Of a stretch of DNA of 64,000 nucleotides, positions 6,224 through 24,961 are shown in pieces. Source of the DNA: a virus. Numbering within the stretch: position 1 is the first letter of the stretch; each line of letters begins with the position of its first letter. The position numbers and the translations under genes are program-made. A model generated the notes under the pieces. The model saw only the letters and a program-made list of their open reading frames with translations, was not told the DNA's origin and searched no databases. The stretch is from the IMG/VR virus record IMGVR_UViG_3300023181_000271. One strand, written 5' to 3'.

Positions 6224-6254
6224 AAAAAAAAGCCTCCGAGATAATCTCAGAGGC
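6224..6254 (-). terminator. Original host ssrA terminator displaced to the left prophage junction
   Basis: Minus-sense hairpin GCCTCTGAGATTATCTCGGAGGC followed by T8 immediately after the displaced ssrA 3' core. Confidence 0.5.
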
Positions 6255-6259
6255 CTGTG

Positions 6260-6288
6260 TGGAGCCGAAGGGGTTCGAACCTTTGTCT
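6260..6288. repeat. attL: displaced copy of ssrA 3'-terminal core (tggagccgaaggggttcgaacc + tttgtct)
   Basis: 22-bp exact and 29-bp near-exact direct repeat with 63875-63903; corresponds to T-arm and acceptor 3' strand of tmRNA. Confidence 0.8.
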
Positions 6289-6466
6289 ACCACCTTCAAC
6301 GGTGTTTGATGACGGTTTAAGTGGTCAAAAATAGGGTTTGGTTTGGTCATTTGTCAGTGATTTGGTCAGCTAATATTGGTAAAATAAATGATCAAATCAA
6401 ATCCGATTAAAGCAACAAACCCCTGGCTTTCACCAAGGGTTTTTATCATAATTGAAAACATTACTA

Positions 6467-7261
6467 CTAGAATCCTACCAGCTTATAAGTTAATGTTCCA
6501 CCTGGTCCCCATTGTTTAAACTTATCATAGTACTGGTAATTAGCTGAAGCATTAAAACGTCCCAGTTGTATTTTTACACCCGGGCCAGCAGCCACACCGG
6601 TAAACTGATTGTAGGTTGATACAGTTTGTATTTCTGCATGAAAAGGCAATACTTTTTTATCAAATCCAATATAATTTACATGATCAACAGTGAAGTACCT
6701 GCTATCTGATGTGACTGACATTAACTCTCTATTTTTCCAAGGCGTGAACCATTTTGATTTATTACCTTTTGCGATCGTAATACCGAATCGCCCCATGAAA
6801 TCAGCTGTGGCTACCGGAGATAATGCATTAGGAGGAGTAAACTTAAGATCCAGTCCATTGCCGTTATAAGTGTAGAAAAGATTTTTCAATGAATCTCGTT
6901 CGGCAATAAGTTGTAATTTCTCTGCTTTATACTGAGCAGCAATGACAGTAACTTCTTTTAGTTGCTTGGTTCTGATATCAAGTGCGAGAGCTGCAGTATC
7001 AACTATATCTGGAATGTCTGTTTTATCTACATTTTCTACAGGGGTATGATTGCCCGTAATATCCAAAATCACACTTTCAACACCGTTTGCTTTTACGGCC
7101 CTGGCTATTTCTTTTGCTTCGGTTAGGATCTTTTTTTCCACCTTTTGATTCTTTTCCTGAAGTGTGGATGCAACCTGGTGTTCTTTGAACCATCCCACTG
7201 CCATACAAATCAAGCCAATAGCGAGAGCAGCTATGATTAGGTAATACTTTAAGTTTTTCAT
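6467..7261 (-). CDS. Lysis-cassette membrane protein (N-terminal TM, coiled coil, beta-rich C-terminus); spanin-like candidate
   Basis: Last gene of the lysis operon, start overlaps stop of upstream gene; N-terminal hydrophobic helix and periplasmic coiled coil. Confidence 0.35.
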   Translation of the reverse strand: MKNLKYYLIIAALAIGLICMAVGWFKEHQVASTLQEKNQKVEKKILTEAKEIARAVKANGVESVILDITGNHTPVENVDKTDIPDIVDTAALALDIRTKQLKEVTVIAAQYKAEKLQLIAERDSLKNLFYTYNGNGLDLKFTPPNALSPVATADFMGRFGITIAKGNKSKWFTPWKNRELMSVTSDSRYFTVDHVNYIGFDKKVLPFHAEIQTVSTYNQFTGVAAGPGVKIQLGRFNASANYQYYDKFKQWGPGGTLTYKLVGF

Positions 7262-7262
7262 A

Positions 7263-7559
7263 CTATTGTTCTTTAACTATGTCTTTAGATTTATTAAGCT
7301 TTTTAGTGGTGATACTGTCTTTTTTCTCAGCTTCGACGGCCTGATTTAAAATAATACCGTTCTTGATCAGTAGCGAGGTATTGAGTATATCGTTCTTACT
7401 CCGCTCTGCCTCATACCTCTTTTCGCATTCCTCACAATCACTTTTCTTCAGTACTGTGTATAGCAGGAGAACTACCACCGCGAACAGTGAGACCACTGTT
7501 ACACCCCATGGATACTTCTGCATTTTTTCGGGTGTGGGTATTTTTATTTTCTCAATCAT
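7263..7559 (-). CDS. Putative holin or i-spanin-like protein (single TM + coiled coil)
   Basis: 98 aa, one TM helix (VTVVSLFAVVVLLLYTVL) followed by charged coiled-coil segment; immediately downstream of endolysin with overlapping stop/start. Confidence 0.35.
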   Translation of the reverse strand: MIEKIKIPTPEKMQKYPWGVTVVSLFAVVVLLLYTVLKKSDCEECEKRYEAERSKNDILNTSLLIKNGIILNQAVEAEKKDSITTKKLNKSKDIVKEQ

Positions 7560-8116
7560 TACGCTGCATATTTAAGTTCTGCTTTTGCGAGACTGATATT
7601 GTACGGTTCGCGGCCGTATTTAATTGCAAGTTCTTTGTACCCGCCACCATTGTAATAAGTAGCGACAAGGTGCCAGTTACGTTCCTTAATTGCTTTCCAA
7701 AGTTTAGGATCTGTTTGTATGAATTTTACGATCCCTTTCACCTGTTGGTATTCGGATGCTTTAAAAGCATCAACCATTGCGTCTACAGTTTTAAATCCTA
7801 ATCGCGCATGATGAAAACCCATTATTTGTCCTAAGCCCCAGCTGGTAGAAAGCATTGCAGCAGTTGCATTTAACTTGAAGGCATTAGAGAATGCTTTATA
7901 TTCCTTATCCTGGTTATCTACCTTATTGATTGACCACAAACCTGAAGGTGCGAATGGTGCTTTTTTCTTAAACCAAGCTGGTTCAAATTGAATGACGATC
8001 CTTCCATTAATAAATCCCTTGCCTCCTGACTCAACGCTGATAAAAGCCATTAATGTGGCATAATTTATATCTATTGATTCGGCTAAGCCTTCGATTTCTT
8101 CGCGTGTTAAATTCAT
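7559..8116 (-). CDS. Endolysin, N-acetylmuramidase (DUF3380/PF11860-like) family
   Basis: ISVESGGKGF catalytic-Glu region and overall similarity to phage N-acetylmuramidase endolysins; likely start at internal ATG (MNLTREEIEGL) rather than the GTG at 8143. Confidence 0.65.
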   Translation of the reverse strand: MNLTREEIEGLAESIDINYATLMAFISVESGGKGFINGRIVIQFEPAWFKKKAPFAPSGLWSINKVDNQDKEYKAFSNAFKLNATAAMLSTSWGLGQIMGFHHARLGFKTVDAMVDAFKASEYQQVKGIVKFIQTDPKLWKAIKERNWHLVATYYNGGGYKELAIKYGREPYNISLAKAELKYAA

Positions 8117-8143
8117 AATACAACTGATTATTAGATGTATCAC

Positions 8144-8239
8144 AAATTTACCCCCACGATAAAGGCGGACTGGTTTTAAGGTTTTACCATTGGCTATTGG
8201 TAACTATAAAGTAGGTAACAAGTTACTATTGCTGAGCAC
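8144..8239 (-). promoter_or_regulatory. Copy A of ~95-bp conserved upstream element (ends in GTGGGGGTAAATTT just before start codon)
   Basis: Near-identical blocks shared with 14424-14526; contains TTACCA-N8-TGGTAA palindrome. Confidence 0.5.
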
Positions 8240-8489
8240 TTTGAATAAGATCAACTTTACCGTACAAATTAGATCAGCACGGAAAACCGTCAAATAGAAT
8301 AAATTATTAATAATAACTTACAAAAACTATTATGTTTACAGCTTTAGCAGAAATATTAAAAGGCGAGTCCGTAATACAGAACACACCTTTTAATGGGGAT
8401 TTTCAAGCAGTTATAATGGGTGATCAAATCAGCGTCACATTCGATCTGGAGTCAGATATGTATCTGTTTATCCGATTAACGAAATAGTC

Positions 8490-11162
8490 CTACCAATGAT
8501 CATTAGGCCCCTGCCCAATATACCTTCCATTGATGTATTTTCGGGTTTGTGGACCAGACGAACTAATCAATTCGTAACCAGTAAGTCCCGGATTTTCCCT
8601 GAAATAAATCTCTCCTTTTACCATTATTACGTCGCCAGATGTAACATTTAGTGCTACATTCTGATTAGCACCTTCCGCTGCTAATTCCAAGGCAATATTA
8701 ACAGTATCGTCAAGGCCGGGTACAGTACCTTTTTTGGGTCTTTTATTCTTCAGGTACCCAATTTGGCTGATTGCTCCACCACTGCTGCCCGGAATCAGGT
8801 CTGTCCCAAATGAAAATTCGTTATACTTATCGCCGGTATATCTTGATGACCCCCTAATGATGGCGAAGTTATTACCTTCTGGAAGCGCAGGAATGGTGGT
8901 ACCATCACTTAAAATTGCTCCCCTGGATAGTTTCCATCCAGATGTCTGTCCATCGGCTGTATTCCCAGATTCTGTACCGATTGTAATGTCCCCGGATATA
9001 TTGGCTTTACTCATATAAACGCTGCCATCATCCAGTACTCTGAATGGTAAATCAGCATCTCCTAATTGTCCACCAGCTCCAAAGCGAATTGATTGATCAC
9101 CGGCATCAGTAACGCCACTTATGAAGGCATTCCCTAACCCTGCTGAACCTACATTCAGTAAGCCTTCAGTATAAGAACCATCAAGCATCTGTACTTTGCC
9201 TTTGAACGTACCCTCATCAAGGTTTATCTCTAATTCATTACCAACAATAATTCCCCCCTCAATTGTTCGTCCATAAATGCTTACTGATCCATACACAGAT
9301 TTTAAGTTCCTGTAATTATCAATCACACTATTTGCTATCCCTATCCAGAAATGGTAAAATGTAGGATCCTGATCAACTTTAATTTGAGCATCCGAAACCA
9401 AGATGCTGCCATCTGCAGTTGTACGGTTACACTTCGCATAGATATAATAAACTTTAGCAGGATCCAGTCCAGAAACAGTTGCTCCTGGAACATTCCAGGT
9501 TACAGGAGCCGGAGCAATAGTAGTATGAACTAATTTTCCAGCAGACCAGTTTATCTTATTTACATCCGCTTGATAGTTACTTATAAAGTTCAATCCGACT
9601 AGTACCAGTTGCTGACTTGTATCCCCTGTCTGAATCATCAATGCACGTAAGGTTACTGGTGAAATAGCTTCGGTAAATATCTGCTCAGTTCCCGGATCAA
9701 AGTATTTATTTAACAGCTCCTGAGAAGTTTTCCAAAGCATACGGGAACGCTGGATATTTGTAATTTGGGCAATATTTAAAGCCTTGGTTACCTTCTCGGC
9801 TTCATATGTTACCCTTGCATAACTTGATCCCAATGCCAAATCTGAAATTCGCAGTACTGGATATAGGAATGGCTCGTGTAAATCGCGCTCAAAAGAGTTT
9901 ACCCTGATATTCTTATCAATAACGATATCAGAGTCCTTGACACCTACATAGTTCCCTAGATCAAGCGTGATGTTATTCCGCTTAAAGTAAAACTTATCAG
10001 GCGGCACCTCATAAGCCACCCTTGGTGGTGAGAATTCAGCAAAGTATTCGTTTCCCTTGGTAAGTAAGAACTGCTCCCTCTCAGAAACATAAGAGGGAGG
10101 CATTACCAAGTCATAGAAAAAGTAAGTATCACCGATTTCAGGCTTCATTAAAGCACTTGGCAATTCCAATGCCTTTTCTACTTCATTTTTAATGATTGTA
10201 ATAGTTCGAGTAGCGTGATTGTATCCTCCTTTAGGAATTTCAAACCAATAACCAGCCAGGTTCCCTGTTAAGAAAGAAACCTTAGGTCTTAAAGTTGGCA
10301 ATTCCTGTGTATTGATATCAAAGTCAATTCCCATATCAGAAAAAACAAAGGGAGTGGTCACGCTGGAGACCATACCAATACGTTCAGGCTTAATGTCGGG
10401 AAAGTTGATTACAGCTTCTATTTCATCCGGGCCATACTTTGGCCCTTGAATATAAGGAGTACCTTCTGGAAGCATCAAATTTGGCTGTCTGTTCCTATAA
10501 TTTACTGGTAGGTTCTGATCAGATCCTGTAACATAAAGTCTGCTGAATGCTGCCTTTGAGTCAACATTTGTACGGATTAATCCTCCTCTTAATCCTTTAT
10601 CATATCCGTACTCGAATTTATGACCGGTGACTACACCACGCTTATTAAAATGGATAGTTTTACCAACTACCCACCATTCCGTTTCAAAATCTTTAGCAGT
10701 ATTATCAATAACGGTTAAAATAGATTCTCCATCAAAAGAAATTAGCTTAGGAACCGAATCAATACATTCTCCCCTACTCCATCCGGACTGTGTACGGTTA
10801 GCGTTGGCCACAATCAAATCCAGCATCATACTTGCATTAGCCATGACCTCTGTTTTGATCACTGTAAGCGCATTGATGCTATCATAGAACATCATGATGG
10901 GTTTAGCCAATCTATAGTATTCAGCTTGAAACGTCATTCTGTAGCTGAATGACATACTACTGTTTTTAGTTGGCTCATCCATTTGGTTCAGATAGTAAGT
11001 CTGGCCATAAACAAACATCGTATCACCAATCTGGAATTGATAAGCAGCAGGAGAATTAAAGGTGATAGGAACAATGTCCTTAACCATTATTTCTTTCTCC
11101 TGCTGACCCTTCGGCCAAACTGTAGCAATTATAGCATCGCCTCTTTTAATGTTGTATAACAT
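8490..11162 (-). CDS. Large tail/baseplate structural protein (890 aa)
   Basis: Position at distal end of tail module after fibre gene; size and beta-rich composition typical of siphovirus tail tip/host-specificity proteins. Confidence 0.55.
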   Translation of the reverse strand: MLYNIKRGDAIIATVWPKGQQEKEIMVKDIVPITFNSPAAYQFQIGDTMFVYGQTYYLNQMDEPTKNSSMSFSYRMTFQAEYYRLAKPIMMFYDSINALTVIKTEVMANASMMLDLIVANANRTQSGWSRGECIDSVPKLISFDGESILTVIDNTAKDFETEWWVVGKTIHFNKRGVVTGHKFEYGYDKGLRGGLIRTNVDSKAAFSRLYVTGSDQNLPVNYRNRQPNLMLPEGTPYIQGPKYGPDEIEAVINFPDIKPERIGMVSSVTTPFVFSDMGIDFDINTQELPTLRPKVSFLTGNLAGYWFEIPKGGYNHATRTITIIKNEVEKALELPSALMKPEIGDTYFFYDLVMPPSYVSEREQFLLTKGNEYFAEFSPPRVAYEVPPDKFYFKRNNITLDLGNYVGVKDSDIVIDKNIRVNSFERDLHEPFLYPVLRISDLALGSSYARVTYEAEKVTKALNIAQITNIQRSRMLWKTSQELLNKYFDPGTEQIFTEAISPVTLRALMIQTGDTSQQLVLVGLNFISNYQADVNKINWSAGKLVHTTIAPAPVTWNVPGATVSGLDPAKVYYIYAKCNRTTADGSILVSDAQIKVDQDPTFYHFWIGIANSVIDNYRNLKSVYGSVSIYGRTIEGGIIVGNELEINLDEGTFKGKVQMLDGSYTEGLLNVGSAGLGNAFISGVTDAGDQSIRFGAGGQLGDADLPFRVLDDGSVYMSKANISGDITIGTESGNTADGQTSGWKLSRGAILSDGTTIPALPEGNNFAIIRGSSRYTGDKYNEFSFGTDLIPGSSGGAISQIGYLKNKRPKKGTVPGLDDTVNIALELAAEGANQNVALNVTSGDVIMVKGEIYFRENPGLTGYELISSSGPQTRKYINGRYIGQGPNDHW

Positions 11163-11180
11163 ATTTTAGATCGTCTATAA

Positions 11181-13856
11181 TTAAAGTCCAAACCTGTGCA
11201 TTATATTTAAGTCGTATTTAAACCGCCTAACCATTTCCGAATTACCTGCTTGATTCGGGTGTGTTCCATCATTGAATAATATGGCGTTTAATCGGGGGGC
11301 GGGGTGCGTGCTATCTATTGTAGGGAAATTTTGCAAAGCCGTACACAAATCAAACTTTGCGCCTTGCTTACCAAACGTATCTATCCTCGAATTTACAGCG
11401 ATATGTAAATCATTAGTTACGCAAGTAACATGATTAAGTATCAATTCAATACCATTGGTTGCACAGAAATCTACGATTGATTGGTACTGTGCAACAGTAC
11501 CAATACCATTTATACCTATTTTAACAGAAAGTATTCTAGGTTTAATGTATGCTATCTCATTAGTAAGCGCGGTAATACAGCCTGCTACAGTCTGCCCGGC
11601 CATAGACACATTGCACGCATCATTGTTATAGTAGTCCATTAACTGAACAGCCCAATTTTTATAACATCTACCATTATCTTCAGTAATACTATCACCTGTA
11701 AAAGCGATATACGGTCTGAAAGGCCCATAAATTGAACATTGACCTACCGAAATAGATGTGCCTGACACCAACTCCATGCAATAGAAGGGCCTATGATTTC
11801 CTGCGCCTAAATCATAGTTTAAACCATTTAGATAATCAAACCGAACTTCTACCATAGCTAAAGACCTCGGATCTATTAGCCTGACAATGGTTAATGTAGC
11901 TCTTCGTTCTAACTCAACCCAATATTCTAACCCGGGAGTTATTGCGAAAGTTATAGCGGTAGTGCCAATAATCGTAGTGGTAGCACGCCTGTTGAGATTG
12001 ATTATAAGATTAGGGATATCTATTACACAGCTTGTGTCATATACAAAATTGGCATTAACAGTACCTACCTTAAGTATGCTATCTGCTTGTGGAAATATTG
12101 ATTGCCTGAACAATCTCCGATCAGAGGTATACTGTCTATTTAATATAAGTTTCGAGCCAGCTGTGGTACTTGTCGCAAGCCCGTTAGATAGTACCCAAGC
12201 ATTAAGAGTCCACTCAGTTGTTGGTTGTGAAAAGTTATATTCATAAAACTTAGTCGACCTGCCTAAATTTTTTGCAATTGATGTTAAAGTATCACTGGAC
12301 TTTTTTGCAATATCTTTTACGCCTACCCAATCTTTACTAACCATATTAACAAAGGCTCCTTTTAGCGTGCTAGTACTTGAAAATACATCACCTGCAGTAT
12401 TATAGTAGCAGTTAAACTGAGTTTGCAAACTGGAATCACTAGTATAGGCAATAGCCACACCTTTAAAAGCAAGATATTGCCCTTGATTTACAACTATAGG
12501 CCGCTCCAGAGTCTGAGTAACAATGTTTCCTGAATATGACCTAATTGATGGACTTACGTCAACAAGAGAAACAACAGTAACCACACCAGCTACTATCTCA
12601 CAAATTTTAACTTGTGTAATTTCATCAATAATTGGACTGGTGGATTGAAAAATAAATTGATAAATACTTTTTGGTTTGTCGATCGGGACGCCATTCATAA
12701 TAAATGAAGCATATCCTGAATAGACTGCATATGTACCACTCAGCCAATCAAATGGTATGATTGGCGTCAGGCTTTCCTTATAACCGGCATATAAGTCCTT
12801 TTGCATCAAAGTTAGATCGTCAATCTTACTGCTACTTACGTATGTAGCTGTAAAAAATAGCTTAAAAGTTTGAGTAGTAGTTATGGATGGACTATCACCT
12901 ATAGCTAGAATAGAATTACCTAATGCAAATGCCGTATATCCAGTTACAGGCTGCTCGTACAACGATATTGTTGGAGAAAAGCCGATATATACATCAGAAG
13001 TATACACTTTATTGATCGTATAAGTATTATCACCTACAACAGTAGAGATCGGTATCTTGTCCAATAATGTAAATGAGTTGCCTACTTTGGAAAATAATTG
13101 TATGAATCCATTGGATGCGGTGCCCGCTTTTAAATATATGTACTTAGTTCTTTTATTGGCTGGTATAAATATATTTGCATCCACCCAATTTTGACCAGTA
13201 ACAGCTGTAGTTGCTGTGCCGCTAGTTGTAATGGTCTGAACCACATCAAGGCCATCCAGTACTGGTTTAAATAATTCTGAAGGAACATACTTAGACAGGT
13301 CGCTAACATTAGCCTTACTGAGTAAATCATCAACCCATACAGCAGATGTTCCTGGCACATCTGTAGATAATGCTGCTCCGCTTGAAATCCAGTATTTGCC
13401 TAAATAAGCTACGGCCATACCTAGACTATACGCTTGAGCAACCCATGATGGTATACGCGAAACTCCGGCTGTACCTGCTGCGCCTCGAATATCAACAGCG
13501 TTGGCAATAACTGTAGAAAAACCAGTTGCAGTAACATAGCTATTGATATTCTCAGTGGGCTTTGTTCCGGCTCCACCTGTATAATCAACTAATTTCTGAA
13601 CAATCCTGGTTCCATCTACAACATTAGCAAATACAGGCTGCCATCCTTTATCTCCCGGAAGTCCCCGTTCAGAATAAACCTGCCAGTAGGCAGTATTCGT
13701 GGGGAGCGTACCGGCAGGTACAGATCCAGATGTCGAAACAAGATATGACGCACCTAAATAACTAACAAAATCAAGATATTCATAATTTGCAGTAGCTGCA
13801 TTCCATGTTCCCCGTGGAGTATTACCTACCTTCCCTAAATTTACTGTTGTTGCCAT
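11181..13856 (-). CDS. Tail fibre/receptor-binding protein with C-terminal SGNH (GDSL) esterase domain
   Basis: 891 aa; C-terminal blocks FTGDSITEDNG (block I GDS), GINGIG (block III) and DGTHPN (block V DxxH) of SGNH hydrolases; Gly/Thr/Ser-rich fibre-like N-terminal region. Confidence 0.65.
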   Translation of the reverse strand: MATTVNLGKVGNTPRGTWNAATANYEYLDFVSYLGASYLVSTSGSVPAGTLPTNTAYWQVYSERGLPGDKGWQPVFANVVDGTRIVQKLVDYTGGAGTKPTENINSYVTATGFSTVIANAVDIRGAAGTAGVSRIPSWVAQAYSLGMAVAYLGKYWISSGAALSTDVPGTSAVWVDDLLSKANVSDLSKYVPSELFKPVLDGLDVVQTITTSGTATTAVTGQNWVDANIFIPANKRTKYIYLKAGTASNGFIQLFSKVGNSFTLLDKIPISTVVGDNTYTINKVYTSDVYIGFSPTISLYEQPVTGYTAFALGNSILAIGDSPSITTTQTFKLFFTATYVSSSKIDDLTLMQKDLYAGYKESLTPIIPFDWLSGTYAVYSGYASFIMNGVPIDKPKSIYQFIFQSTSPIIDEITQVKICEIVAGVVTVVSLVDVSPSIRSYSGNIVTQTLERPIVVNQGQYLAFKGVAIAYTSDSSLQTQFNCYYNTAGDVFSSTSTLKGAFVNMVSKDWVGVKDIAKKSSDTLTSIAKNLGRSTKFYEYNFSQPTTEWTLNAWVLSNGLATSTTAGSKLILNRQYTSDRRLFRQSIFPQADSILKVGTVNANFVYDTSCVIDIPNLIINLNRRATTTIIGTTAITFAITPGLEYWVELERRATLTIVRLIDPRSLAMVEVRFDYLNGLNYDLGAGNHRPFYCMELVSGTSISVGQCSIYGPFRPYIAFTGDSITEDNGRCYKNWAVQLMDYYNNDACNVSMAGQTVAGCITALTNEIAYIKPRILSVKIGINGIGTVAQYQSIVDFCATNGIELILNHVTCVTNDLHIAVNSRIDTFGKQGAKFDLCTALQNFPTIDSTHPAPRLNAILFNDGTHPNQAGNSEMVRRFKYDLNIMHRFGL

Positions 13857-13857
13857 G

Positions 13858-14418
13858 TTATTGTTTCGTTAAAATGAGTTGTTTTCTGCTATTCAAAGCA
13901 AAAGTGTATGTTGATTTGTCGTCCTTGGTTACCAGCAAGTCCATATTTGCGTCTACATTAAAGAAGAATTCACCATCAGTTTTATAGGGGACTGGCTGTA
14001 ATATTTCATCAAATGTGAATTGAACCTCTACTGCTATTTTACTTGTAAGATTGGTAATACGGTGCCAGCTGATCCCATCAGGCTGTAATCTGGCATTCAT
14101 CTTCACTCCAAGATGTACAGCCTCTAAAGTCACATAAGGCTGATATAGGAATCCTGGTAAAGCGATTTTTGTCGAATTATAAATGCTGATATTATCGCAG
14201 TATACGATCCCTTTAATAGTTGGTGTTCGCGGCTTTTGAATTACTGGTGCTAATAAATCATATTCCAGTATACCCTCAGCCCATTGATATTTATCTGGCT
14301 CTAACGTTCCAGCTGGTTTCTCAAAACTGTCGGCCGTTGTTAAATCCCGAGTAGGCAGAATGTTGAGTGCCTGAAAAAGGTTGTAACCATTAATATTGTA
14401 TTGCGCTGTGATCGCCAT
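13858..14418 (-). CDS. Hypothetical tail-module protein
   Basis: 186-aa ORF between beta-helix gene and fibre gene, preceded by conserved 95-bp element. Confidence 0.4.
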   Translation of the reverse strand: MAITAQYNINGYNLFQALNILPTRDLTTADSFEKPAGTLEPDKYQWAEGILEYDLLAPVIQKPRTPTIKGIVYCDNISIYNSTKIALPGFLYQPYVTLEAVHLGVKMNARLQPDGISWHRITNLTSKIAVEVQFTFDEILQPVPYKTDGEFFFNVDANMDLLVTKDDKSTYTFALNSRKQLILTKQ

Positions 14419-14423
14419 AAAAC

Positions 14424-14526
14424 AAATTTACCCCCACTATGAACAGAGGCCGGATTTATGGTTTTACCAATAGCCAATGGTAACGAACAAGCACGCGTAA
14501 CAAGACAAGGCTTTCTTATTGAGCAC
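14424..14526 (-). promoter_or_regulatory. Copy B of ~95-bp conserved upstream element
   Basis: Shares aaatttacccccac...ggttttacca-N8-tggtaac...gtaacaag...tattgNtgagcac blocks with 8144-8239; central 20-bp palindrome inverted relative to copy A. Confidence 0.5.
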
Positions 14527-15853
14527 CTACACCTACGAATTTTGATTTGAAGGTTGTAAGATCGGTAACCGCCTCCTGCCAAGTGTTTAAGTATAGATTA
14601 CCAGAATCCTTTACAATATTACCCCCATTTGAATTGGTCATATTTCCGATCGCATTAGCGGGCCTGTACATATCAAATCCAAAGTTGTTGTAATATGAAA
14701 TTTTACCGCCCGTATTATAAGTATCCAGCATCACCCCTTCCCAGTCTTTAGATATAGTAAGGTGCCCAGCTGTATTATTATATACATAAGCATCGGTATA
14801 ATTAATAACTCCTTTATGTGAGGTTAAGAAATCTACTATATGCTGTGGTGCCTGTAATTCAAATGCGCTATACTTCCAGCTGTTATAAACGATATTATTA
14901 TAAATCTTAATGTCCTTCACCGTGCTGCCAAAAGATACGCCCCAAGCCCTAATTGCATTTCCCTGATGGTTAGTGATCTTATTATCATGAAATGAGCCAT
15001 TGCCGGTAATCATGAAAATACCATTATGAATGCCATTAGGTGCCGACTTATCGTAGACATTATTGATATTGTTCACTACGTTACCTGCAATCTCATATCC
15101 ATCCAAAGCGGATGCGTACATGACTGTGCCAATAGTCGGGCAGTCTACAAATTTGTTATTCAAGATTTTTATCCCTGACATATAGGTGGTAATTCCACCA
15201 TCGCTGTAACCTCCTCCTAGCCCGATACCTTGTCCTACATTGGTGAAGGAGCAATTTTCTATACGCCAATCTTTTGAATTGGTTTTATCTGTACCATCCC
15301 AGATCCCTGCATATTCATAGGTGATCACATTGCTTTTAATATTCTTAAAAGTCAAATCATGCAGGTAAATTCCTGTACAGAAACCCCTAATATTGACAGC
15401 ACGATACGATTGATCAGCCATTGTTAATCCATACAACTCAAAGTTATTTGCATTATTAATATCGAATGAACTGTAGTCTGAATTAATTGTAACCCCTGTA
15501 GCATCAATCACAACATTGGTGGCACTGGTAAAACCTATGCTCCAATAATTGCCCGGTTTAATTTTGAACTTCTTATTTGCAAGTACACCTAAATCAAGCC
15601 TTCCGGAGCCGGTACCTACCAGGATCCAAGTAGGATGAGACAATAGGTAATCTTTGTAGGCTTTGGTCACGACAGACTTCGCCACACTTCCAGTGATCGT
15701 TAGTACGGTTCCATCGGAATACTTTACCGTATTGGTAACGACTGATGCGCTCGTATAAGAAATAGTTTTCCCATCAATAGGGAAAGATCCTGTTTGTGCT
15801 GATGCAAACATAGTGTAGCTGATCAGCAATAGCGTTAATAGTTTTCTCATCAT
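14516..15853 (-). CDS. Sec-signal right-handed beta-helix (pectate-lyase-like) protein; candidate depolymerase or secreted moron
   Basis: N-terminal signal peptide MMRKLLTLLLISYTMFASAQ; multiple PbH1-like repeats (NCSFTN, ILNNKFVDC, IAGNVVNN, FHDNKITN, IYNNIVYNS). Confidence 0.6.
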   Translation of the reverse strand: MMRKLLTLLLISYTMFASAQTGSFPIDGKTISYTSASVVTNTVKYSDGTVLTITGSVAKSVVTKAYKDYLLSHPTWILVGTGSGRLDLGVLANKKFKIKPGNYWSIGFTSATNVVIDATGVTINSDYSSFDINNANNFELYGLTMADQSYRAVNIRGFCTGIYLHDLTFKNIKSNVITYEYAGIWDGTDKTNSKDWRIENCSFTNVGQGIGLGGGYSDGGITTYMSGIKILNNKFVDCPTIGTVMYASALDGYEIAGNVVNNINNVYDKSAPNGIHNGIFMITGNGSFHDNKITNHQGNAIRAWGVSFGSTVKDIKIYNNIVYNSWKYSAFELQAPQHIVDFLTSHKGVINYTDAYVYNNTAGHLTISKDWEGVMLDTYNTGGKISYYNNFGFDMYRPANAIGNMTNSNGGNIVKDSGNLYLNTWQEAVTDLTTFKSKFVGVGAQ

Positions 15854-15866
15854 ATTATTTGTTAAA

Positions 15867-18800
15867 TTATCTTCCTACTCCCTGTTGCGCTTTCAATTGA
15901 TCATCCATCTTTCTGTTCATGGATACCAGTGAATTTTCAATGCTTTCTAATCGATTTGTGTTATCGGCTGTCCTGAGCGTATTAGCTGCAATCTTCTGAC
16001 TTTCCAAAAGGTTTAATGAACTCATATTCAATATTTGAATCGCAGTCAAACCCATCGGTTTAAGGATGTTATTTGTTTCCAATTGCGTTAACCTGAAACC
16101 TGCAAAATGCCCCGCTAATACATCTGCTTGTGTGGCTGTAATTGCTTGAATTCCGCTTTTAATTGTTCCTGATGAATCATCAGAACCTAATAAATTTGAC
16201 CCAGTAATCTTTTTAAACTCTTCAAATTTCTTTAAAGCATCGCCAGTAAGGGAGGTGAACAATCCATTTAAGGTGGCAATCTCATCAGCAGTTAATTCAT
16301 CGCCACTCTGCGCGGCCTTATCAAATTCACTATAAAACTTCTCCATAGCACCAGCAAGCACTTTATTCTTAAATATGCTTAGCGCCGCGTCATCCATTGT
16401 CTGTTTAAAGAAATCTGCCAGATCCTGAGCAGACGTTTTACCAGAAGCAAACATCTCAGCGAGTGTATTCGTTAGATTGTCGGAAGTAGTACCCGTGAAT
16501 AGTTCCGATGTTTCTTTAGCCAAATCAGCAATAGCCTGTTCAGCATCGTATCCTTTCTGCTCTAATTCCTTCAACCGCTCAACTAAGGCCTTAGCATCAC
16601 CTTCCAGTTTACCTTGTGCAAGTAGATTGCTTAACTCCTGAAAGCTTTTACCCTGGAGACTTCCATAGGTCTTGTCTACTTTTGCTTTACGGAACCAGGT
16701 ACCATGCGTATAAGTCTCATTAGCGATGAACGACTGGCTTTGCAACTTCGCCATGATCTCTGCAGCTTCCTTCGTATATGCTTCGTTCTGCGACTTTCGT
16801 AATGCCAACTCATCCCTGATACCTTGCAGTGCAACCTTATTATTCCTGACCGTTTGAAGTTGCCTTTCCTTCAACATATCCTGATATTCACGTTCGCCAG
16901 CAATTGCATTGATATAGAAATCTTCAACCTCTTTACGAGCAGCAGCGTTCATCTCTTTTACTTTTTTTCCAATAGACAAGAGCCCTGTTACAGCAGTTAC
17001 TGCTTTAGTTACTCCACCAACGATATCTCCACTTGCAAAAGAAGAAAAAGAACCTGCAGCATCTGATCCAACCTTAACTAGTTTGCCAATCGTATCTAAT
17101 AAGTATCCCGCCTGTGTATCGTTACCACCTAATGATGTCGATAACTCATCGAAACTACTTGATAAGGCACCAAGGTCTTTAGATACTCCAGCAGCAAACT
17201 CAGAAGATGTTCCTTTTAAATAACTAAAGTTTTCAGCAATCTTATCACCCCAAGAAGCAGCACCATCACCATTTTTATCGATCTCCTTAATCTTAATACC
17301 GATAGCCGCTAACCTGGTAATGATTGCTTTGTAATCATCTTCGCTTAAAATGATTTCATTACCATCTTCGTCCTTTACATGAAGCTGATCACTTACCCTC
17401 TTAAATTCATCCTTTAAGTTTTGAAGATTACCTTTATCAATTCCAATTTTAAAAGATAATTTAAGTGCATCTAGGCTTTTCTGAACTTTGATAACTTGTT
17501 CTGCTGGTAAGGTGCCGGATCCTAGAACACCCTCTAATGCCCTGATCTGTTGAACCAATTGTTCTCTTGTCAGAATTAAAGCTTCTTCTGCCGCCCTTTT
17601 ATACACAGCAGACTTCTGCAGCATAGCTGACGACAATTGGTCAATTTCATCCTGGTATGCCTTAGTACGTACAGCACGATTACTAGCATTAGCATCACCA
17701 GTCATTTTTTCAAAATCAGCATTAAACTTCTCAGTCGCTGTAGTTTTAGCCTGTTGATAAGTAGCATTGGTAAGCAAAAGAGCGTTATAATTATCCCTTT
17801 CTTTTTTCTGCTCTTCTTTGATACGATTTGCAACAATAATTAAACGCTCCTGCTCCGGACCAGATAGAAGCTTTCCATTTATAGAATTAGATACCCCCTT
17901 ATAGATTAGCTTTGAGTACTCATCTTTCAGTGTATCCAGATAGTTTTTAGTACTTCCTAATTCAGTAGCAAACCTTTTCTTAGCAGCAGTTTCACCAATT
18001 TCTTTTTTTGCCTGTTCGAAGTCAGTATATAATACTTTTTGTTTATCCAGTTCAATAGTTAACTTGGCAGTATTCTGTCTATAAGTTACTGCCGCAAGTT
18101 CTTTCTTCTCACCTTCAGCCAAGCCGCCTGCATCTACACTTAATCCCTTTGCTTTATTTTTAACATCCTTATTAAATGCAGCCGCTTCAGCTCGCATCTT
18201 AATATACTTATCCTTTACGGACTCAATTTCCTGTTGATCAGCGGACAATTGTCTATCTGTACCGGCCTTTATAAGTTCAGCAATCTTTGTTTGTAAATCA
18301 TTTCTCGCTTTTAAGGCTGAAGCATATTGATTCTTTTCTGTAATGCCAGAGTTGTCAATACCACCATTGGCAAGTTTTAACTCTTTTCGTAAGTCTTTTA
18401 ATTTCTTAAGATTCGACTGATATTGTGCAGTGGTGTATCCCAGTTTCTTATTTGCATCTACAAGCGCTTTGATATCTGCCTTAATATCATCAGTAGTTCT
18501 ACCTTCTCCTCCAGCGCCATCGAAAGTCTCCTGAACAGCACCATAGAGACCAGTATAAGATTTTCTAAGTTTATCAACAATGGATTGTTGCTGCAATAAA
18601 GGAGCCTGCAGATTTTTGAACCTGTCAACAAAAGGTTTAATTGCAGCTTCAGAATTCTTAGGATTTTTAGCGTATTCTTTAGCATAATTGGATTGCTCAT
18701 ACAACCGATTCAACTTGCTTTGCTGAATATCAATCGCCTTTTTTAAAGAAGGTTCATCAATATTAGTATCAACAATCAACTTTGATTTGATCGTAGCAAT

Positions 18801-21002
18801 ACCTTCGATCTTATCCCGGTTAGCAAGAATTGTAGATTGTCTTTCTTCAGCTTTGATAGCTGCAATAGCATCTGCATTTCTTTTTGCAGCAGCAGTTGGT
18901 CCAGATAATATATCACCAAAACCACCACCAAAACCTTTAGCTAGCGTGCCAAATCTACTAATTATCGTATCCAGGTTCTTGATCAGTATTGTTGCAGCGT
19001 CGATGCCTCCTTTGAAAAACTGGCCAATGCTACTGTCAGGATTAGTAGTTACATTGGTAATGGAATTACCTAATTTATCCCATGATGCAGCAAGGTTGTT
19101 GTTTTTCTCTTCAAAGTTTTCTGATAAAATAGTATGCTCCTCATAAAGGTCATTACCTGTTTTAACTTTCTTACTTAAGCTTTCTTGATTTAACGCCAAA
19201 GCTGTTATTGCATTGGTTGCAGCACCAACTTTAAAACCTAATGTACCCAGTCTATCGTTAAACTCAGTCGTAGTTGGATTGCCAGCTTTCAATCCTTTGA
19301 AGAATAAGTCCAGTGCCTGTTTAGAGTCTGTATTTACAAGTTTGGTGAACTTTTCTAACGTTAAAGTTGAATCAGCAAGCTGAGCAATCGCAAAGTACTT
19401 TTCTCTCTTTCCGGATAAGGAAGATATCAACCTACTAGTTGATGATGCTGCAATCTGAGCACTTACCCCTGCCTCTGACAAGACTGCACCATAAGCCAGC
19501 ATAGTCGGCAATGATAACTTTGCTACCCGAGCTGCACCAGCAGTTCTTAAAGTGAAATCTTGAAGGAACTGAACGTTAATTGGTCCAGTGTGGGATATAC
19601 CAAGAATAGCAGATCCTACCTTTTTAAGTGACTCTTCTAAACTAATATTCTCCTTTGAAGTCAGCTTATAGATTGAAATGATTTTTCCTAATGATCGGGC
19701 GACCGTCTCAGCACCACCTGGGAACTCCCTTTTTAAGACAACTGCTAATTGGTCAATAGTCTCGATATAACCTACAAGATCTTTCTTTGCAACCGCAAGC
19801 TGCCCCCCAACAAAACCAGTGTCTAACAGACCAGATAAATTGGTTCTTGTATCAACATCCTTAAGTGTAGTAACTAATACTCCTACCTCTTCCGTTGACT
19901 CCCTTGCGGTCCTTTTTATATCGGAAATACTATCAGACAATTCTAAGTTAGCATGGAATACACTTTTTATTGCTGCCACTGCTGCGTACAAAGTCAAGTA
20001 TGAGGCCACCATGCCAACAATCTGAGAACCTAAACCTGATAAAAATCCACCGGTCTTTTGGATAGCGTTTCCAAACTCATCAAAACCTTTTTTTCCAGCA
20101 CTATTTAACCTTTGTAATTCCTCCTGAGTCTGACCAATCTTTCTGTTTAGCGCAACGATGTTCTCAGCACCCTTAGCAGTATTTGGCTGTGCACGTACAG
20201 CATCAGAATAAATCTTTAGCCTATTAGTAAGCGTCTCCTGATAGCCGATCGTCTTTTTGATCGCATTCCCTACCTCATCAAAACCGGCTTTTCCGGCATT
20301 TTTTGTTTTGACAATTGCTGCAGCTGTTTCCTCTAGTTTACGATTGTACTTAGCGATAAGTTCAGGATTGGTCATTGATGCTGCACCATTCTTATAAATT
20401 TTTTGCAGCTCAATCAATCTATTTAAAGTTCCAACAGGACGTTCAATGGAAACTTTCATTGCATTACCCAACTCGTCAAAACCATCTTTACCAATATTTT
20501 TGGTTCTGGTAATCTGAATAGCAACATCAGCAAGCTTTTGATTGTATTTAGCAATTGCATCAGTATTAGCCATCCCAACTAATCCAGCTTTGTAGATGTT
20601 TTGTAATTCTATTAGCCTGGCAAGTGTACCAACTGGTCTTTCGTAAGACGTTTTAATCGCATTACCAAGGTCATCAAAACCTATTTTACCAATATTGGTA
20701 AGCCTCTTTATTTCAGCTTCAAACTCTTGAATCTTTTGATTGTATTTTTCAATACCAGCAACAGACATAGCGGAATCTGCAGAGGCTTTAAACTCAGCCA
20801 ATTTTGCTTTAAGCCTTTCAAGAATTCCATTATTAGCATCTGCAATTTTCTTAGCAAATCCTTCCACCTTTTCACCCTGAGCTGTGGCATTGCTTGCCAG
20901 CCCATTCACCTTGGTGTTCATGGTATTTATCGTCGCATTGAAGCTCTTATCGTTTATCGTTGCATCAAAATGTAATCCACCGCCTGTTGTTGAAGTGCTC
21001 AT
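15867..21002 (-). CDS. Tail tape measure protein
   Basis: 1711 aa, coiled-coil rich, internal ~44-aa tandem repeats, TM-like segment, located between chaperone and distal tail genes. Confidence 0.9.
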   Translation of the reverse strand: MSTSTTGGGLHFDATINDKSFNATINTMNTKVNGLASNATAQGEKVEGFAKKIADANNGILERLKAKLAEFKASADSAMSVAGIEKYNQKIQEFEAEIKRLTNIGKIGFDDLGNAIKTSYERPVGTLARLIELQNIYKAGLVGMANTDAIAKYNQKLADVAIQITRTKNIGKDGFDELGNAMKVSIERPVGTLNRLIELQKIYKNGAASMTNPELIAKYNRKLEETAAAIVKTKNAGKAGFDEVGNAIKKTIGYQETLTNRLKIYSDAVRAQPNTAKGAENIVALNRKIGQTQEELQRLNSAGKKGFDEFGNAIQKTGGFLSGLGSQIVGMVASYLTLYAAVAAIKSVFHANLELSDSISDIKRTARESTEEVGVLVTTLKDVDTRTNLSGLLDTGFVGGQLAVAKKDLVGYIETIDQLAVVLKREFPGGAETVARSLGKIISIYKLTSKENISLEESLKKVGSAILGISHTGPINVQFLQDFTLRTAGAARVAKLSLPTMLAYGAVLSEAGVSAQIAASSTSRLISSLSGKREKYFAIAQLADSTLTLEKFTKLVNTDSKQALDLFFKGLKAGNPTTTEFNDRLGTLGFKVGAATNAITALALNQESLSKKVKTGNDLYEEHTILSENFEEKNNNLAASWDKLGNSITNVTTNPDSSIGQFFKGGIDAATILIKNLDTIISRFGTLAKGFGGGFGDILSGPTAAAKRNADAIAAIKAEERQSTILANRDKIEGIATIKSKLIVDTNIDEPSLKKAIDIQQSKLNRLYEQSNYAKEYAKNPKNSEAAIKPFVDRFKNLQAPLLQQQSIVDKLRKSYTGLYGAVQETFDGAGGEGRTTDDIKADIKALVDANKKLGYTTAQYQSNLKKLKDLRKELKLANGGIDNSGITEKNQYASALKARNDLQTKIAELIKAGTDRQLSADQQEIESVKDKYIKMRAEAAAFNKDVKNKAKGLSVDAGGLAEGEKKELAAVTYRQNTAKLTIELDKQKVLYTDFEQAKKEIGETAAKKRFATELGSTKNYLDTLKDEYSKLIYKGVSNSINGKLLSGPEQERLIIVANRIKEEQKKERDNYNALLLTNATYQQAKTTATEKFNADFEKMTGDANASNRAVRTKAYQDEIDQLSSAMLQKSAVYKRAAEEALILTREQLVQQIRALEGVLGSGTLPAEQVIKVQKSLDALKLSFKIGIDKGNLQNLKDEFKRVSDQLHVKDEDGNEIILSEDDYKAIITRLAAIGIKIKEIDKNGDGAASWGDKIAENFSYLKGTSSEFAAGVSKDLGALSSSFDELSTSLGGNDTQAGYLLDTIGKLVKVGSDAAGSFSSFASGDIVGGVTKAVTAVTGLLSIGKKVKEMNAAARKEVEDFYINAIAGEREYQDMLKERQLQTVRNNKVALQGIRDELALRKSQNEAYTKEAAEIMAKLQSQSFIANETYTHGTWFRKAKVDKTYGSLQGKSFQELSNLLAQGKLEGDAKALVERLKELEQKGYDAEQAIADLAKETSELFTGTTSDNLTNTLAEMFASGKTSAQDLADFFKQTMDDAALSIFKNKVLAGAMEKFYSEFDKAAQSGDELTADEIATLNGLFTSLTGDALKKFEEFKKITGSNLLGSDDSSGTIKSGIQAITATQADVLAGHFAGFRLTQLETNNILKPMGLTAIQILNMSSLNLLESQKIAANTLRTADNTNRLESIENSLVSMNRKMDDQLKAQQGVGR

Positions 21003-21005
21003 AGT

Positions 21006-21757: not shown

Positions 21758-21760
21758 ATG

Positions 21761-21787
21761 AAAAGTAAAAGCCCCCGGGTTGGGGGC
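21761..21787 (-). terminator. Intrinsic terminator after major tail protein gene
   Basis: Minus-sense hairpin GCCCCCAACCCGGGGGC followed by TTTTACTTTT. Confidence 0.55.
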
Positions 21788-21795
21788 TGTAAAAA

Positions 21796-22299: not shown

Positions 22300-22310
22300 A
22301 ATTATTTAAT

Positions 22311-22751: not shown

Positions 22752-22753
22752 GG

Positions 22754-23861: not shown

Positions 23862-23869
23862 GACTATTC

Positions 23870-24955: not shown

Positions 24956-24961
24956 TGTCTA

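What the first reader, a model, noticed from the sequence alone, without database searches (positions are those of the whole stretch)
6260..6288. Prophage integrated into the 3' end of ssrA; att core equals the tmRNA T-arm plus acceptor 3' strand
A 22-bp exact (29-bp near-exact) direct repeat tggagccgaaggggttcgaacc(Y)ttgtc occurs at 6260-6288 and 63875-63903. The right copy continues into a tmRNA-like body containing the conserved AAGCAUGUAG block, and the integrase begins 12 bp away. The left copy is followed by the original host terminator. The two repeats delimit a 57.6-kb phage with a complete gene set. The cI-like repressor carries an S24 autopeptidase domain, so the phage is probably SOS-inducible.
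Basis: partly seen in the sequence, partly recalled or inferred. Interest (0 to 1): 0.65.

Follow-up and report, generated by a model that had tools for sequence, protein, structure and literature searches.

The report
Prophage inserted in tmRNA gene
A 57.6-kb temperate phage sits in the 3' end of the tmRNA gene (ssrA) of an uncultured Pedobacter-like bacterium, and near-identical strains lack it; this is a well-documented but ordinary way for phages to integrate.

Summary
A 23-bp exact direct repeat (22 bp as reported, plus one g) lies at 6259-6281 and 63874-63896; none is expected by chance. The right copy is the 3' end of a tmRNA gene on the minus strand, cut by the window end (Rfam RF00023). 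The left copy is a displaced ssrA 3' fragment followed by the host terminator.

Metagenome contigs 99.8-99.95% identical in the host flank carry a single core copy and a full-length tmRNA (117 bits). Their sequence equals the outer arm of the left copy joined to the inner arm of the right copy, so they are true empty sites.

The 57,615 bp between the repeats encode one coherent tailed-phage genome. Integrase relatives (56-84% identity) in five other Sphingobacteriaceae loci all sit directly 3' of ssrA.

Three corrections:
- The integrase probably starts at the TTG at 63797, 77 nt from ssrA, not 12 bp.
- The repressor has no Pfam S24 hit. Its fold and an invariant Ser/Lys pair do support a divergent cI/LexA-like domain, but no Ala-Gly cleavage site was found.
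- SOS induction and current excision are unproven.

This is a new member of a known kind, of low to moderate interest.

The parts
6259..6281 (-). int-distal att core copy: the displaced host 3' fragment of ssrA (1 nt of trailer, discriminator, acceptor 3' strand, T-stem 3' strand, T-loop, 2 nt of T-stem 5' strand)
   Evidence: Exact repeat. Its left flank is identical to the flank of the intact ssrA in empty-site contigs.
6282..6288 (-). phage-derived near-repeat extension (tttgtct, against host cttgtcc); marks the phage side of the crossover
   Evidence: Empty sites carry the cttgtcc version only.
6230..6256 (-). original host ssrA intrinsic terminator (12-bp stem plus T-run), separated from the gene by the prophage
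   Evidence: The same sequence directly follows the full tmRNA in L002, L003, L005, L006, L012 and L013.
6282..63873 (-). prophage body; the element is 57,615 bp counting one core copy. Nearly all genes are on the minus strand.
   Evidence: The region is absent from near-identical contigs.
6342..6369 (-). cluster of (C)TGAC(C/A)AA motifs inside the int-distal prophage end; candidate arm-type integrase binding sites (inferred)
   Evidence: 5 of the 11 window matches to CWGACMAA lie within about 100 bp inside the two ends, all on the minus strand.
6417..6442 (-). terminator-like hairpin after the last phage gene
6467..7261 (-). last phage gene (264 aa, no family match)
7559..8143 (-). endolysin (muramidase). 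The 98-aa ORF downstream at 7263-7559 has a hydrophobic stretch (holin candidate, inferred).
   Evidence: phrog_1224 E 4.5e-45; PF11860 Muramidase on the identical gene in L007; no Pfam hit for 7263-7559
8490..13856 (-). two ~890-aa tail fibre or receptor-binding type proteins
15867..21002 (-). tail length tape measure protein (1711 aa)
   Evidence: phrog_25337 E 2.5e-30
23870..24955 (-). major head protein
   Evidence: phrog_29 E 8e-28
26759..27844 (-). head morphogenesis / minor head protein
27963..29390 (-). portal protein
   Evidence: phrog_64 E 2.8e-49
29689..31236 (-). terminase large subunit
   Evidence: phrog_38 E 1.3e-83. Best GenBank phage match is 53% aa identity.
31239..31739 (-). 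terminase small subunit (weak match)
   Evidence: phrog_309 E 1.2e-4
31831..32251 (-). phage-borne tRNA-Trp(CCA) and tRNA-Gln(TTG)
56184..59345 (-). recombination module: RecT (58347-59345) and PD-(D/E)XK exonuclease-like protein (56184-56876)
   Evidence: PF03837; phrog_412
60278..60541 (-). first early gene, LuxR/GerE-type HTH, divergent from the repressor
   Evidence: PF00196
60715..61479 (+). cI-like repressor: N-terminal HTH_3 plus a divergent S24-like C-terminal domain (S152, K206)
62212..62628 (+). second HTH (HTH_19) protein next to int
62625..63797 (-). tyrosine integrase. The probable start is the TTG at 63797 (390 aa); the longest ORF starts at 63863 (412 aa).
   Evidence: PF00589 51.5 bits against a cut-off of 27.1. 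R258, K286, R364, H384 and Y393 are invariant or nearly so. Start codon evidence.
63807..63835 (-). three CWGACMAA motifs in the int-proximal arm (candidate arm-type sites, inferred)
   Evidence: conserved in L015-L019
63823..63864 (-). phage-supplied stem-loop 11 nt after the tmRNA discriminator, with no T-run; conserved with compensatory changes
   Evidence: -23.1 kcal/mol, z -4.5. 3 of 15 pairs show double changes across 5 loci.
63874..63896 (-). int-proximal att core copy; the 3' end of the functional ssrA gene
63872..64000 (-). 3' part of the tmRNA gene (model positions 236-374), cut by the window end
   Evidence: 127 nt are 100% identical to the full-length tmRNA of the empty-site contigs.

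Best explanation
[quoted passage not shown] The phage's tyrosine integrase exchanged strands inside a 23-bp segment that attP shares with attB. That segment covers the T-loop, the 3' half of the T-stem, the 3' acceptor strand, the discriminator and one further base.

Because attP carries a faithful copy of the ssrA 3' end, the gene is regenerated at the int-proximal junction (63874-64000). The original host 3' fragment and its terminator are displaced 57.6 kb away (6230-6281).

Shown: the repeat, the tmRNA identity, the empty site, the hybrid nature of both junctions, the integrase family, its conserved association with ssrA, and the phage gene set.

Inferred: strand exchange in or next to the T-loop (Williams sublocation II type); CWGACMAA arm-type sites; lysogeny maintained by the HTH/S24-like repressor and lifted by RecA-stimulated self-cleavage; present-day ability to excise.
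For: - Repeat: exact, with 0 expected by chance.
- tmRNA: Rfam hit on the right copy. Full-length tmRNA at 117.4 bits, E 4e-45, in L002, L003 and L005 (89.3 bits in L006, cut at its 5' end by the contig end), with tag GENNYALAA readable in the alignment.
- Empty site: it reads host-terminator flank + core + cttgtcc + tmRNA body. That is exactly the left arm of the left copy plus the right arm of the right copy.
- Near-isogenic comparison: host flank 99.8-99.95% identical over 6,287 nt, and tmRNA part 100% identical over 127 nt.
- Independent lysogen contigs: ENA ERZ27228488 and Logan SRR7968062 show the same junctions.
- Integrase: PF00589, with conserved R...K...R...H...Y.
- Conserved target: five relatives (56-84% identity) from Pedobacter sp. 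Leaf170, Arcticibacter pallidicorallinus, Parapedobacter lycopersici and two metagenomes all lie immediately 3' of a full tmRNA gene.
- Single element: one phage gene set, with no third core copy at up to 3 mismatches.
- Repressor: HTH_3, lambda cI/LexA fold (3bdn E 4e-6, 2ho0, 1jhe) and invariant G150-x-S152-M153 and K206.
- Precedent: ssrA integration with a 3'-end direct repeat is described in many phyla (PMC3146451, citing Williams 2003, read).
Against: - No attP junction or circular form was found. The pattern core+TTTGTCTACCACC has no exact hit in IMG/VR or the JGI metagenome contigs, and both other contigs carrying the distal phage gene are in the integrated form. Present-day excision is therefore not shown.
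- No excisionase was recognised among the small ORFs.
- The window repressor has no Pfam S24 hit, a PDB sequence-profile search saw only its HTH, and no Ala-Gly cleavage site is evident.
- The exact crossover position within the 23 bp cannot be determined from sequence.
Confidence: 0.93

Rival explanations
1. The element integrated as described but is now a cryptic prophage fixed in this lineage. It no longer excises or forms particles.
For: No attP junction was found in any collection searched. No excisionase was recognised. About half of the ORFs have no family match.
Against: No truncated or split phage gene was noticed in the ORF map: packaging, head, tail and lysis ORFs are full length against their PHROG profiles. 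Strains with as few as 3 differences in 6.3 kb of flank differ in presence of the element, which implies very recent integration or excision. Both att junctions are undegraded.
Confidence: 0.15
2. The repressor is not a self-cleaving SOS sensor. Its S24-like domain serves only for oligomerisation, and induction runs through an anti-repressor or another signal.
For: No Pfam S24 hit for this protein. No canonical Ala-Gly or Cys-Gly site appears in the linker region of 21 homologues. There is a second HTH protein next to int.
Against: Ser152 (in GxSM) and Lys206 are invariant across 21 homologues down to 36% identity, which is hard to explain without catalysis. The best structural matches include the hyper-cleavable lambda cI fragment and LexA. 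4 of 21 relatives do reach Pfam Peptidase_S24 at E <= 0.01.
Confidence: 0.35
3. The region is a non-phage integrative island (ICE/IME), or a composite of two tandem elements sharing the ssrA site.
For: It carries a PRTRC cassette (ThiF/E2-like), which NCBIfam describes by a system name only; from general knowledge it is typical of plasmids and ICEs. From general knowledge, ssrA sites often accumulate tandem islands; one search read this for Dehalococcoides.
Against: There is a single set of terminase, portal, capsid, tape measure, fibre and endolysin genes, and no conjugation genes were detected. Only two core copies exist even with 3 mismatches.
Confidence: 0.03
4. The repeat is a chance or duplication artefact unrelated to recombination.
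For: None.
Against: 0 of 100 shuffles gave any match. The empty site reconstructs exactly from the two junctions.
Confidence: 0.01

Closest known systems
Prophages and islands integrated at ssrA (Williams, 'Traffic at the tmRNA gene', J Bacteriol 2003; examples recalled from memory: E. coli CP4-57, Shewanella CP4So, Vibrio VPI, Salmonella Fels-2; Dehalococcoides ssrA islands, PMC3146451)
   Same: [quoted passage not shown] The intact gene is regenerated next to the integrase, and the displaced 3' fragment lies at the far end. The identity block runs from the T-arm to the 3' end.
   Different: The host phylum is Bacteroidota, family Sphingobacteriaceae. The integrase clade has no close relative in GenBank phages (at most 26% identity) or IMG/VR. 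Dehalococcoides islands use a serine recombinase, whereas this element uses a tyrosine recombinase.
tRNA-gene-integrating temperate phages with T-loop (sublocation II) crossover, for example P4/P22-type integrases (classification recalled from Williams 2002, not read here)
   Same: The identity block begins in the 5' strand of the T-stem and extends to the gene's 3' end. The T-stem arms form the inverted repeat around a 7-nt loop that could be the overlap region.
   Different: The crossover position was not determined here. The target is tmRNA rather than a tRNA.
Lambda cI / LexA family repressors (MEROPS S24)
   Same: Two-domain architecture of HTH plus a beta-rich C-terminal domain. The structural matches with E <= 0.001 are lambda cI: full-length cI, the lambda-186 hybrid repressor and the hyper-cleavable cI fragment; LexA follows at E 1.1e-3. 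A GxSM serine and a downstream lysine are invariant.
   Different: Too divergent for Pfam PF00717 or PDB sequence profiles. No Ala-Gly site was recognised.
Bacteroides fragilis temperate phages BF503P/BF486P and uncultured human-gut phage contigs
   Same: Closest large terminases at 47-53% aa identity.
   Different: No DNA-level relatedness was looked for or seen. Different host family. The integrase is unrelated.

Membership tests
ssrA (tmRNA gene)-integrated prophage | One element boundary is the 3' end of a bona fide tmRNA gene | tested here: met
   Rfam RF00023 at 47.6 bits on 63872-64000, 5'-truncated by the window. 100% identical over 127 nt to complete tmRNA genes scoring 117.4 bits.
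ssrA (tmRNA gene)-integrated prophage | [quoted passage not shown] | tested here: met
   23-bp exact repeat, 0 expected by chance.
ssrA (tmRNA gene)-integrated prophage | Related genomes have an unoccupied site with one core copy, and the junctions are attB/attP hybrids | tested here: met
   Six loci (L002, L003, L005, L006, L012, L013) drawn from four contigs (L012 and L013 re-read the contigs of L002 and L006); flanks 99.8-99.95% identical.
ssrA (tmRNA gene)-integrated prophage | A site-specific recombinase gene lies adjacent to the regenerated gene | tested here: met
   PF00589 at 51.5 bits against a 27.1 cut-off; 77 nt (or 11 nt for the longest ORF) from the tmRNA 3' end.
ssrA (tmRNA gene)-integrated prophage | Relatives of the integrase use the same target gene | tested here: met
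   5 of 5 examined homologues (56-84% identity) lie directly 3' of full tmRNA genes.
ssrA (tmRNA gene)-integrated prophage | Excision products (attP circle and restored attB from the same strain) | tested here: inconclusive
   No attP junction in IMG/VR or JGI contigs. Raw reads could not be searched.
Tyrosine recombinase | Catalytic R-K-H-R-H/W-Y residues | tested here: met
   R258, K286, H384 and Y393 are invariant, and H362 and R364 nearly invariant, in 17 homologues. The register of the first His is unclear: the motif reads K361-H362-T363-R364, not HxxR.
Williams sublocation II (T-loop) integration class | Strand exchange within the T-loop, flanked by T-stem inverted repeats | not testable with these tools
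   The crossover is only bounded to the 23-bp identity block, which includes the whole T-loop.
LexA/cI S24 self-cleaving repressor | N-terminal HTH DNA-binding domain | tested here: met
   PF01381 at 30.1 bits against a cut-off of 23.
LexA/cI S24 self-cleaving repressor | Match to the Peptidase_S24 family profile | tested here: not met
   No PF00717 hit at E <= 10 for the window protein. Only 4 of 21 family members hit. No NCBIfam hit.
LexA/cI S24 self-cleaving repressor | S24 fold of the C-terminal domain | tested here: met
   AlphaFold model with mean pLDDT 82. Foldseek top hits are lambda cI 3bdn (E 4e-6), the cI cleavable fragment 2ho0/2hnf and LexA 1jhe.
LexA/cI S24 self-cleaving repressor | Ser-Lys catalytic dyad | tested here: met
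   S152 (G-x-S-M) and K206 are invariant in 21 sequences.
LexA/cI S24 self-cleaving repressor | Ala-Gly (or Cys-Gly) scissile bond in the linker | tested here: inconclusive
   No conserved AG or CG. The conserved segment reads KAY(G/A)SYLRG.
LexA/cI S24 self-cleaving repressor | RecA*-stimulated autocleavage | not testable with these tools
   Needs biochemistry.

The most novel reading that the evidence does not exclude
The phage supplies more than a surrogate ssrA 3' end. It also brings a conserved, covarying stem-loop (63823-63864) that replaces the displaced host terminator. This stem-loop would act as the 3'-processing or termination signal of the tmRNA precursor and would gate read-through from the very strong ssrA promoter into int. 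The longest-ORF TTG start is buried in the stem, and the likely true start lies 26 nt downstream of it. Integrase expression in this Sphingobacteriaceae phage clade would then be coupled to tmRNA transcription and processing. The same prophage also carries a PRTRC (ThiF/E2-like) cassette that is very rare in phages.
Probability: 0.2. Interest if true: 0.5.

Novelty: new member of a known kind. Interest (0 to 1): 0.25.

Why it matters
This is a clean, fully reconstructed attL/attR/attB triplet for a temperate phage of Sphingobacteriaceae, a group with few characterised temperate phages. It defines an ssrA-specific tyrosine-integrase clade found in Pedobacter, Arcticibacter and Parapedobacter.

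It could be useful as an integration tool for these soil bacteria and as a marker of strain-level prophage polymorphism in the source metagenomes. It does not change what is known about how phages use the tmRNA gene.

Tried and rejected
- ARAGORN found no tmRNA in the window or in the empty-site loci, although Infernal scores them at 117 bits. It was therefore not used as evidence.
- A cmscan of the left copy (6100-6500) gave only chance-level hits. The fragment is too short to score.
- An exact search for the int-distal junction sequence (core + phage arm), which would also have caught attP, found nothing in IMG/VR or the JGI metagenome contigs.
- An integrase-based search of IMG/VR found no relative.
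- Look-ups of P0057 and P0059 were not on record.
- A look-up of the last phage gene found only integrated forms.
- Pfam at E <= 10 and a PDB sequence-profile search did not see an S24 domain. The domain was recovered only by structure prediction and motif conservation.
- No excisionase or holin family was detected among ten small ORFs.
- Williams 2003 (PMC142792) is not held in the library. Its sublocation scheme is cited second-hand from PMC3146451 and from memory.
- A third att copy or tandem element was considered and rejected.

Full report
**1. Observation**

The sequence TGGAGCCGAAGGGGTTCGAACC occurs at 6260-6281 and 63875-63896 and nowhere else in the window, even with three mismatches allowed. 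None of 100 dinucleotide-preserving shuffles produced a match.

Direct reading shows that the g before each copy is also shared, so the exact repeat is 23 bp (6259-6281 and 63874-63896). On the other side the copies read T-ttgtc-T (left) and C-ttgtc-C (right), after which similarity ends. The reported 29-bp stretch is therefore 27 of 29 identical. The spacing is 57,615 bp.

**2. The right copy is the 3' end of ssrA**

Rfam's tmRNA model (RF00023) matches 63872-64000 on the minus strand at 47.6 bits (gathering score 47, E 9.7e-16). The match covers model positions 236-374 of 374 and is flagged as cut at the 5' end by the window edge. ARAGORN does not call it. ARAGORN also misses the complete genes found later, so that negative result carries no weight.

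On the tmRNA strand the repeat reads GG-TTCGAAC-CCCTT-CGGCTCC-A-C. These segments are the last two bases of the T-stem 5' strand, the T-loop, the T-stem 3' strand, the acceptor 3' strand, the discriminator, and one trailer base (register taken from the alignment).

**3. The left copy is a displaced fragment with the host terminator**

Downstream of the left copy on the tmRNA strand lies a 12-bp-stem hairpin followed by a T-run at 6230-6256. Nothing tmRNA-like lies upstream of the copy.

**4. Empty sites exist in near-identical strains**

Exact-protein look-ups with the flanking Fic gene and KatG returned metagenome contigs in which the same flank runs straight into a complete tmRNA gene with no phage. 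The flank order is thioredoxin-like, KatG, HigBA, Fic, small membrane ORF, terminator. The loci are L002 and L012, L003 (a 174.7-kb JGI contig), L005, and L006 and L013.
- The tmRNA occupies 11309-11674 on the minus strand and scores 117.4 bits, E 4e-45.
- The tag reading frame GENNYALAA and the G3:U pair of the acceptor stem are visible in that alignment.
- On the far side of the gene lies a PAS histidine kinase.

At the junction these contigs read host-terminator flank, then core, then cttgtccagttgtg... That is exactly the left arm of the window's left copy joined to the right arm of its right copy.

The flanks are 99.81-99.95% identical to the window over 6,287 nt (3-12 differences). The tmRNA part is 100% identical over 127 nt.

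It shows that both window junctions are attB/attP hybrids and that the crossover fell inside the 23-bp identity. The c-to-t differences at 6282 and 6288 are on the phage side, so attP carries AAAGG where the host T-stem has AAGGG. The lysogen's tmRNA keeps the host version.

Two further assemblies carry the same integrated form: ENA ERZ27228488 k141_1362860 (59,854 bp, 100% identical in the two end stretches fetched, window 4161-15749 and 52625-64000) and Logan SRR7968062.

**5. What lies between the repeats**

The interval holds one coherent temperate-phage genome, almost entirely on the minus strand. In order from the ssrA end:

| Module | Coordinates | Evidence |
|---|---|---|
| Tyrosine integrase (PF00589) | 62625-63863 (longest ORF) | |
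| Plus-strand lysogeny block: HTH_19 protein, a DUF4251/DUF4468-like protein, the 254-aa HTH_3 repressor | 62212-62628, 61489-62052, 60715-61479 | |
| Divergent GerE-type early gene | 60278-60541 | |
| RecT and PD-(D/E)XK exonuclease | 58347-59345, 56184-56876 | |
| SNF2 helicase | 50990-52681 | |
| PRTRC-like cassette | 46621-50974 | |
| tRNA-Gln and tRNA-Trp | 31831-32251 | |
| Small and large terminase | 31239-31739, 29689-31236 | |
| Portal, head morphogenesis, major head protein | 27963-29390, 26759-27844, 23870-24955 | |
| 1711-aa tape measure | 15867-21002 | |
| Two ~890-aa fibre-like proteins | 8490-13856 | |
| Endolysin | 7559-8143 | |
| Last phage gene (264 aa, no family match) and terminal terminator | 6467-7261, 6417-6442 | |

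There is one set of each module and no third att copy, so the element is not a tandem or composite. GC content, mostly 36-41% in 2-kb windows (two dip to 34-35%), is close to that of the host flank.

The phage is not close to anything in GenBank phages. TerL reaches at most 53% aa identity, to gut phage contigs and Bacteroides fragilis phages. The integrase reaches at most 26%.

**6. The integrase clade is ssrA-specific**

Homologues are confined to Sphingobacteriaceae-type sources: Pedobacter, Arcticibacter, Parapedobacter and Hufsiella. Five were examined in context, and every one has a complete tmRNA gene ending just upstream of int:
- Pedobacter sp. Leaf170 (L015, 69% by tblastn, 71% by BLASTP)
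- a JGI contig with the same PAS-kinase neighbour (L016, 84%)
- an ENA contig (L017, 82%)
- Arcticibacter pallidicorallinus (L018, 65%)
- Parapedobacter lycopersici (L019, 56%)

The host of the window is therefore most likely a Pedobacter-like member of this family. This is inferred; the window matches a 64,185-bp unnamed metagenome contig.

R258, K286, H384 and Y393 are invariant, and H362 and R364 nearly so, among 17 homologues.

**7.

(a) Integrase start.
- The longest ORF begins with the TTG at 63863, 11 nt from the tmRNA.
- Alignment of six loci shows protein-level conservation beginning only at (T/G)TG-AAA-AC-AA-TGG, that is M-K-T-K-W-E-G-P-F.
- Upstream sequence varies, with indels that are not multiples of three in the more distant loci.
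- NCBI-annotated homologues are 390-399 aa.
- The likely start is therefore 63797 (390 aa), 77 nt from ssrA.

(b) Repressor.
- Pfam reports only the HTH, even at E <= 10. NCBIfam reports nothing. A family profile searched against PDB sequences sees only the HTH.
- In its favour, 21 homologues share invariant G150-x-S152-M153, P168-G169, K206 and S222-x-N224.
- 4 of the 21 reach PF00717.
- An AlphaFold model (pLDDT 82) matches full-length lambda cI, the hyper-cleavable cI fragment and LexA best.
- The S24-like assignment is therefore supported as 'works like'. Formal family membership by profile is not met, and no Ala-Gly site is recognisable.
- SOS inducibility is plausible but unproven.

**8. 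Extra anatomy of the att region**

Between the tmRNA 3' end and int lies a strong stem-loop at 63823-63864 (-23.1 kcal/mol, z -4.5). It is conserved in the four closest of the five related loci, with compensatory changes in 3 of 15 pairs. It has no T-run, and no terminator-like site was found between ssrA and int.

The motif CWGACMAA occurs 11 times in the window, about the number expected by chance overall. However, five of those lie within about 100 bp inside the two prophage ends, all in the same orientation: 6350, 6362, 63807, 63816 and 63828. The int-proximal trio is conserved in the related loci. I read these as candidate arm-type integrase sites. The motif was defined post hoc, so this is an inference.

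**9. What is not shown**

- No attP junction was found in IMG/VR or the JGI contigs.
- No free-phage relative was found.
- No excisionase was recognised.

The presence/absence polymorphism between strains differing by a handful of SNPs argues for very recent activity, but it does not distinguish integration from excision.

**10. Comparison with known systems and verdict**

Integration of phages and islands into the 3' end of ssrA is well established across phyla, with a direct repeat of the gene's 3' end and regeneration of the gene next to the integrase (PMC3146451 and its citation of Williams 2003).

The present case meets every sequence-testable criterion of that class. It adds a new phage and a new ssrA-specific integrase clade in Sphingobacteriaceae. 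It is a new member of a known kind and a well-supported but ordinary finding.

Noticed in passing
window 46621-50974 (-): PRTRC-like cassette in the prophage early region. PRTRC_E (PF19556; TIGR03741 at 70.8 bits against a 37.95 cut-off) is at 50360-50974. An unknown 375-aa ORF is at 49005-50132. Prok-E2_D / PRTRC_B (below the NCBIfam cut-off) is at 48305-49012. PRTRC ThiF (TIGR03736 at 244.6 bits against a 144.75 cut-off) is at 47568-48305. A PAPS-reductase-like protein is at 46621-47568, and an SNF2 helicase lies just upstream. PRTRC_B homologues occur in only 4 of 50,697 GenBank phage records (Ralstonia phages Dina and YO105_4 and one gut contig). PRTRC_E occurs in none.
   Followed up: partly
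window 63823-63864 (-): A phage-supplied stem-loop lies 11 nt after the tmRNA discriminator. It is conserved with compensatory base changes in four related loci (L015-L018; L019 has a different hairpin at the same place) and lacks a T-run. It contains the TTG of the longest int ORF. It may be a surrogate ssrA 3' processing or termination element, or an int regulator.
   Followed up: partly
window 6342-6369 and 63807-63835 (-): (C)TGAC(C/A)AA motifs cluster in the same orientation just inside both prophage ends, accounting for 5 of the 11 window-wide matches. They are candidate arm-type integrase sites.
   Followed up: partly
window 63797 vs 63863 (-): The integrase start is probably the TTG at 63797 (390 aa, MKTKWEGPF...). 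This start is conserved as TTG or GTG in six loci and is used by NCBI annotation of homologues. The longest-ORF TTG at 63863 is less likely.
   Followed up: yes
L004 12380-12619 (ENA ERZ27228643 k141_431069): In a 98%-identical strain the same host terminator is followed by TGGAGC and then by unrelated sequence (TGAGGATGATTTAAATGAACCC...). This suggests a different element, or a different crossover, at the ssrA site. The contig ends 213 bp later. That strain also has an MNT/HepT toxin-antitoxin pair and Imm26/Imm32 genes in the flank.
   Followed up: no
L016 (JGI 3300023082 Ga0247730_1000331): A different prophage occupies ssrA in the same host context (PAS histidine kinase upstream). Its integrase is 84% identical, but its repressor is a different, 215-aa protein that does hit Pfam Peptidase_S24.
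   Followed up: partly
window 31831-31902 and 32177-32251 (-): The prophage carries tRNA-Trp(CCA) and tRNA-Gln(TTG) just upstream of the terminase genes.
   Followed up: no
window 3500-6160: The host DNA immediately 3' of ssrA is low in GC (33% at 4001-6000). It holds an FRG-domain ORF, HigB/HigA, a Fic protein and a small membrane ORF, and it varies between strains (L004). It could be the remains of older ssrA-targeted islands, but no degenerate core copy was found there.
   Followed up: partly
L002, L003, L005 11309-11674; window 63872-64000: ARAGORN fails to call this tmRNA, although Infernal scores it at 117 bits with a normal GENNYALAA tag. tmRNA-based att-site screens that rely on ARAGORN would miss this lineage.
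   Followed up: yes
integrase residues 358-367 (window 62763-62792, -): The box II motif reads Y-C-Y-K361-H362-T-R364-A-V-H367, with K361 invariant. The spacing does not fit the canonical HxxR, and the register of the catalytic His is unresolved.
   Followed up: no
L008, L009 (Logan SRR7967966, SRR7968061): Short contigs of the host flank stop 6 nt past the att core, in the empty-site version. This would fit assembly-graph branching where lysogen and non-lysogen paths merge, and so hints at mixed populations in those samples. It was not verified.
   Followed up: no
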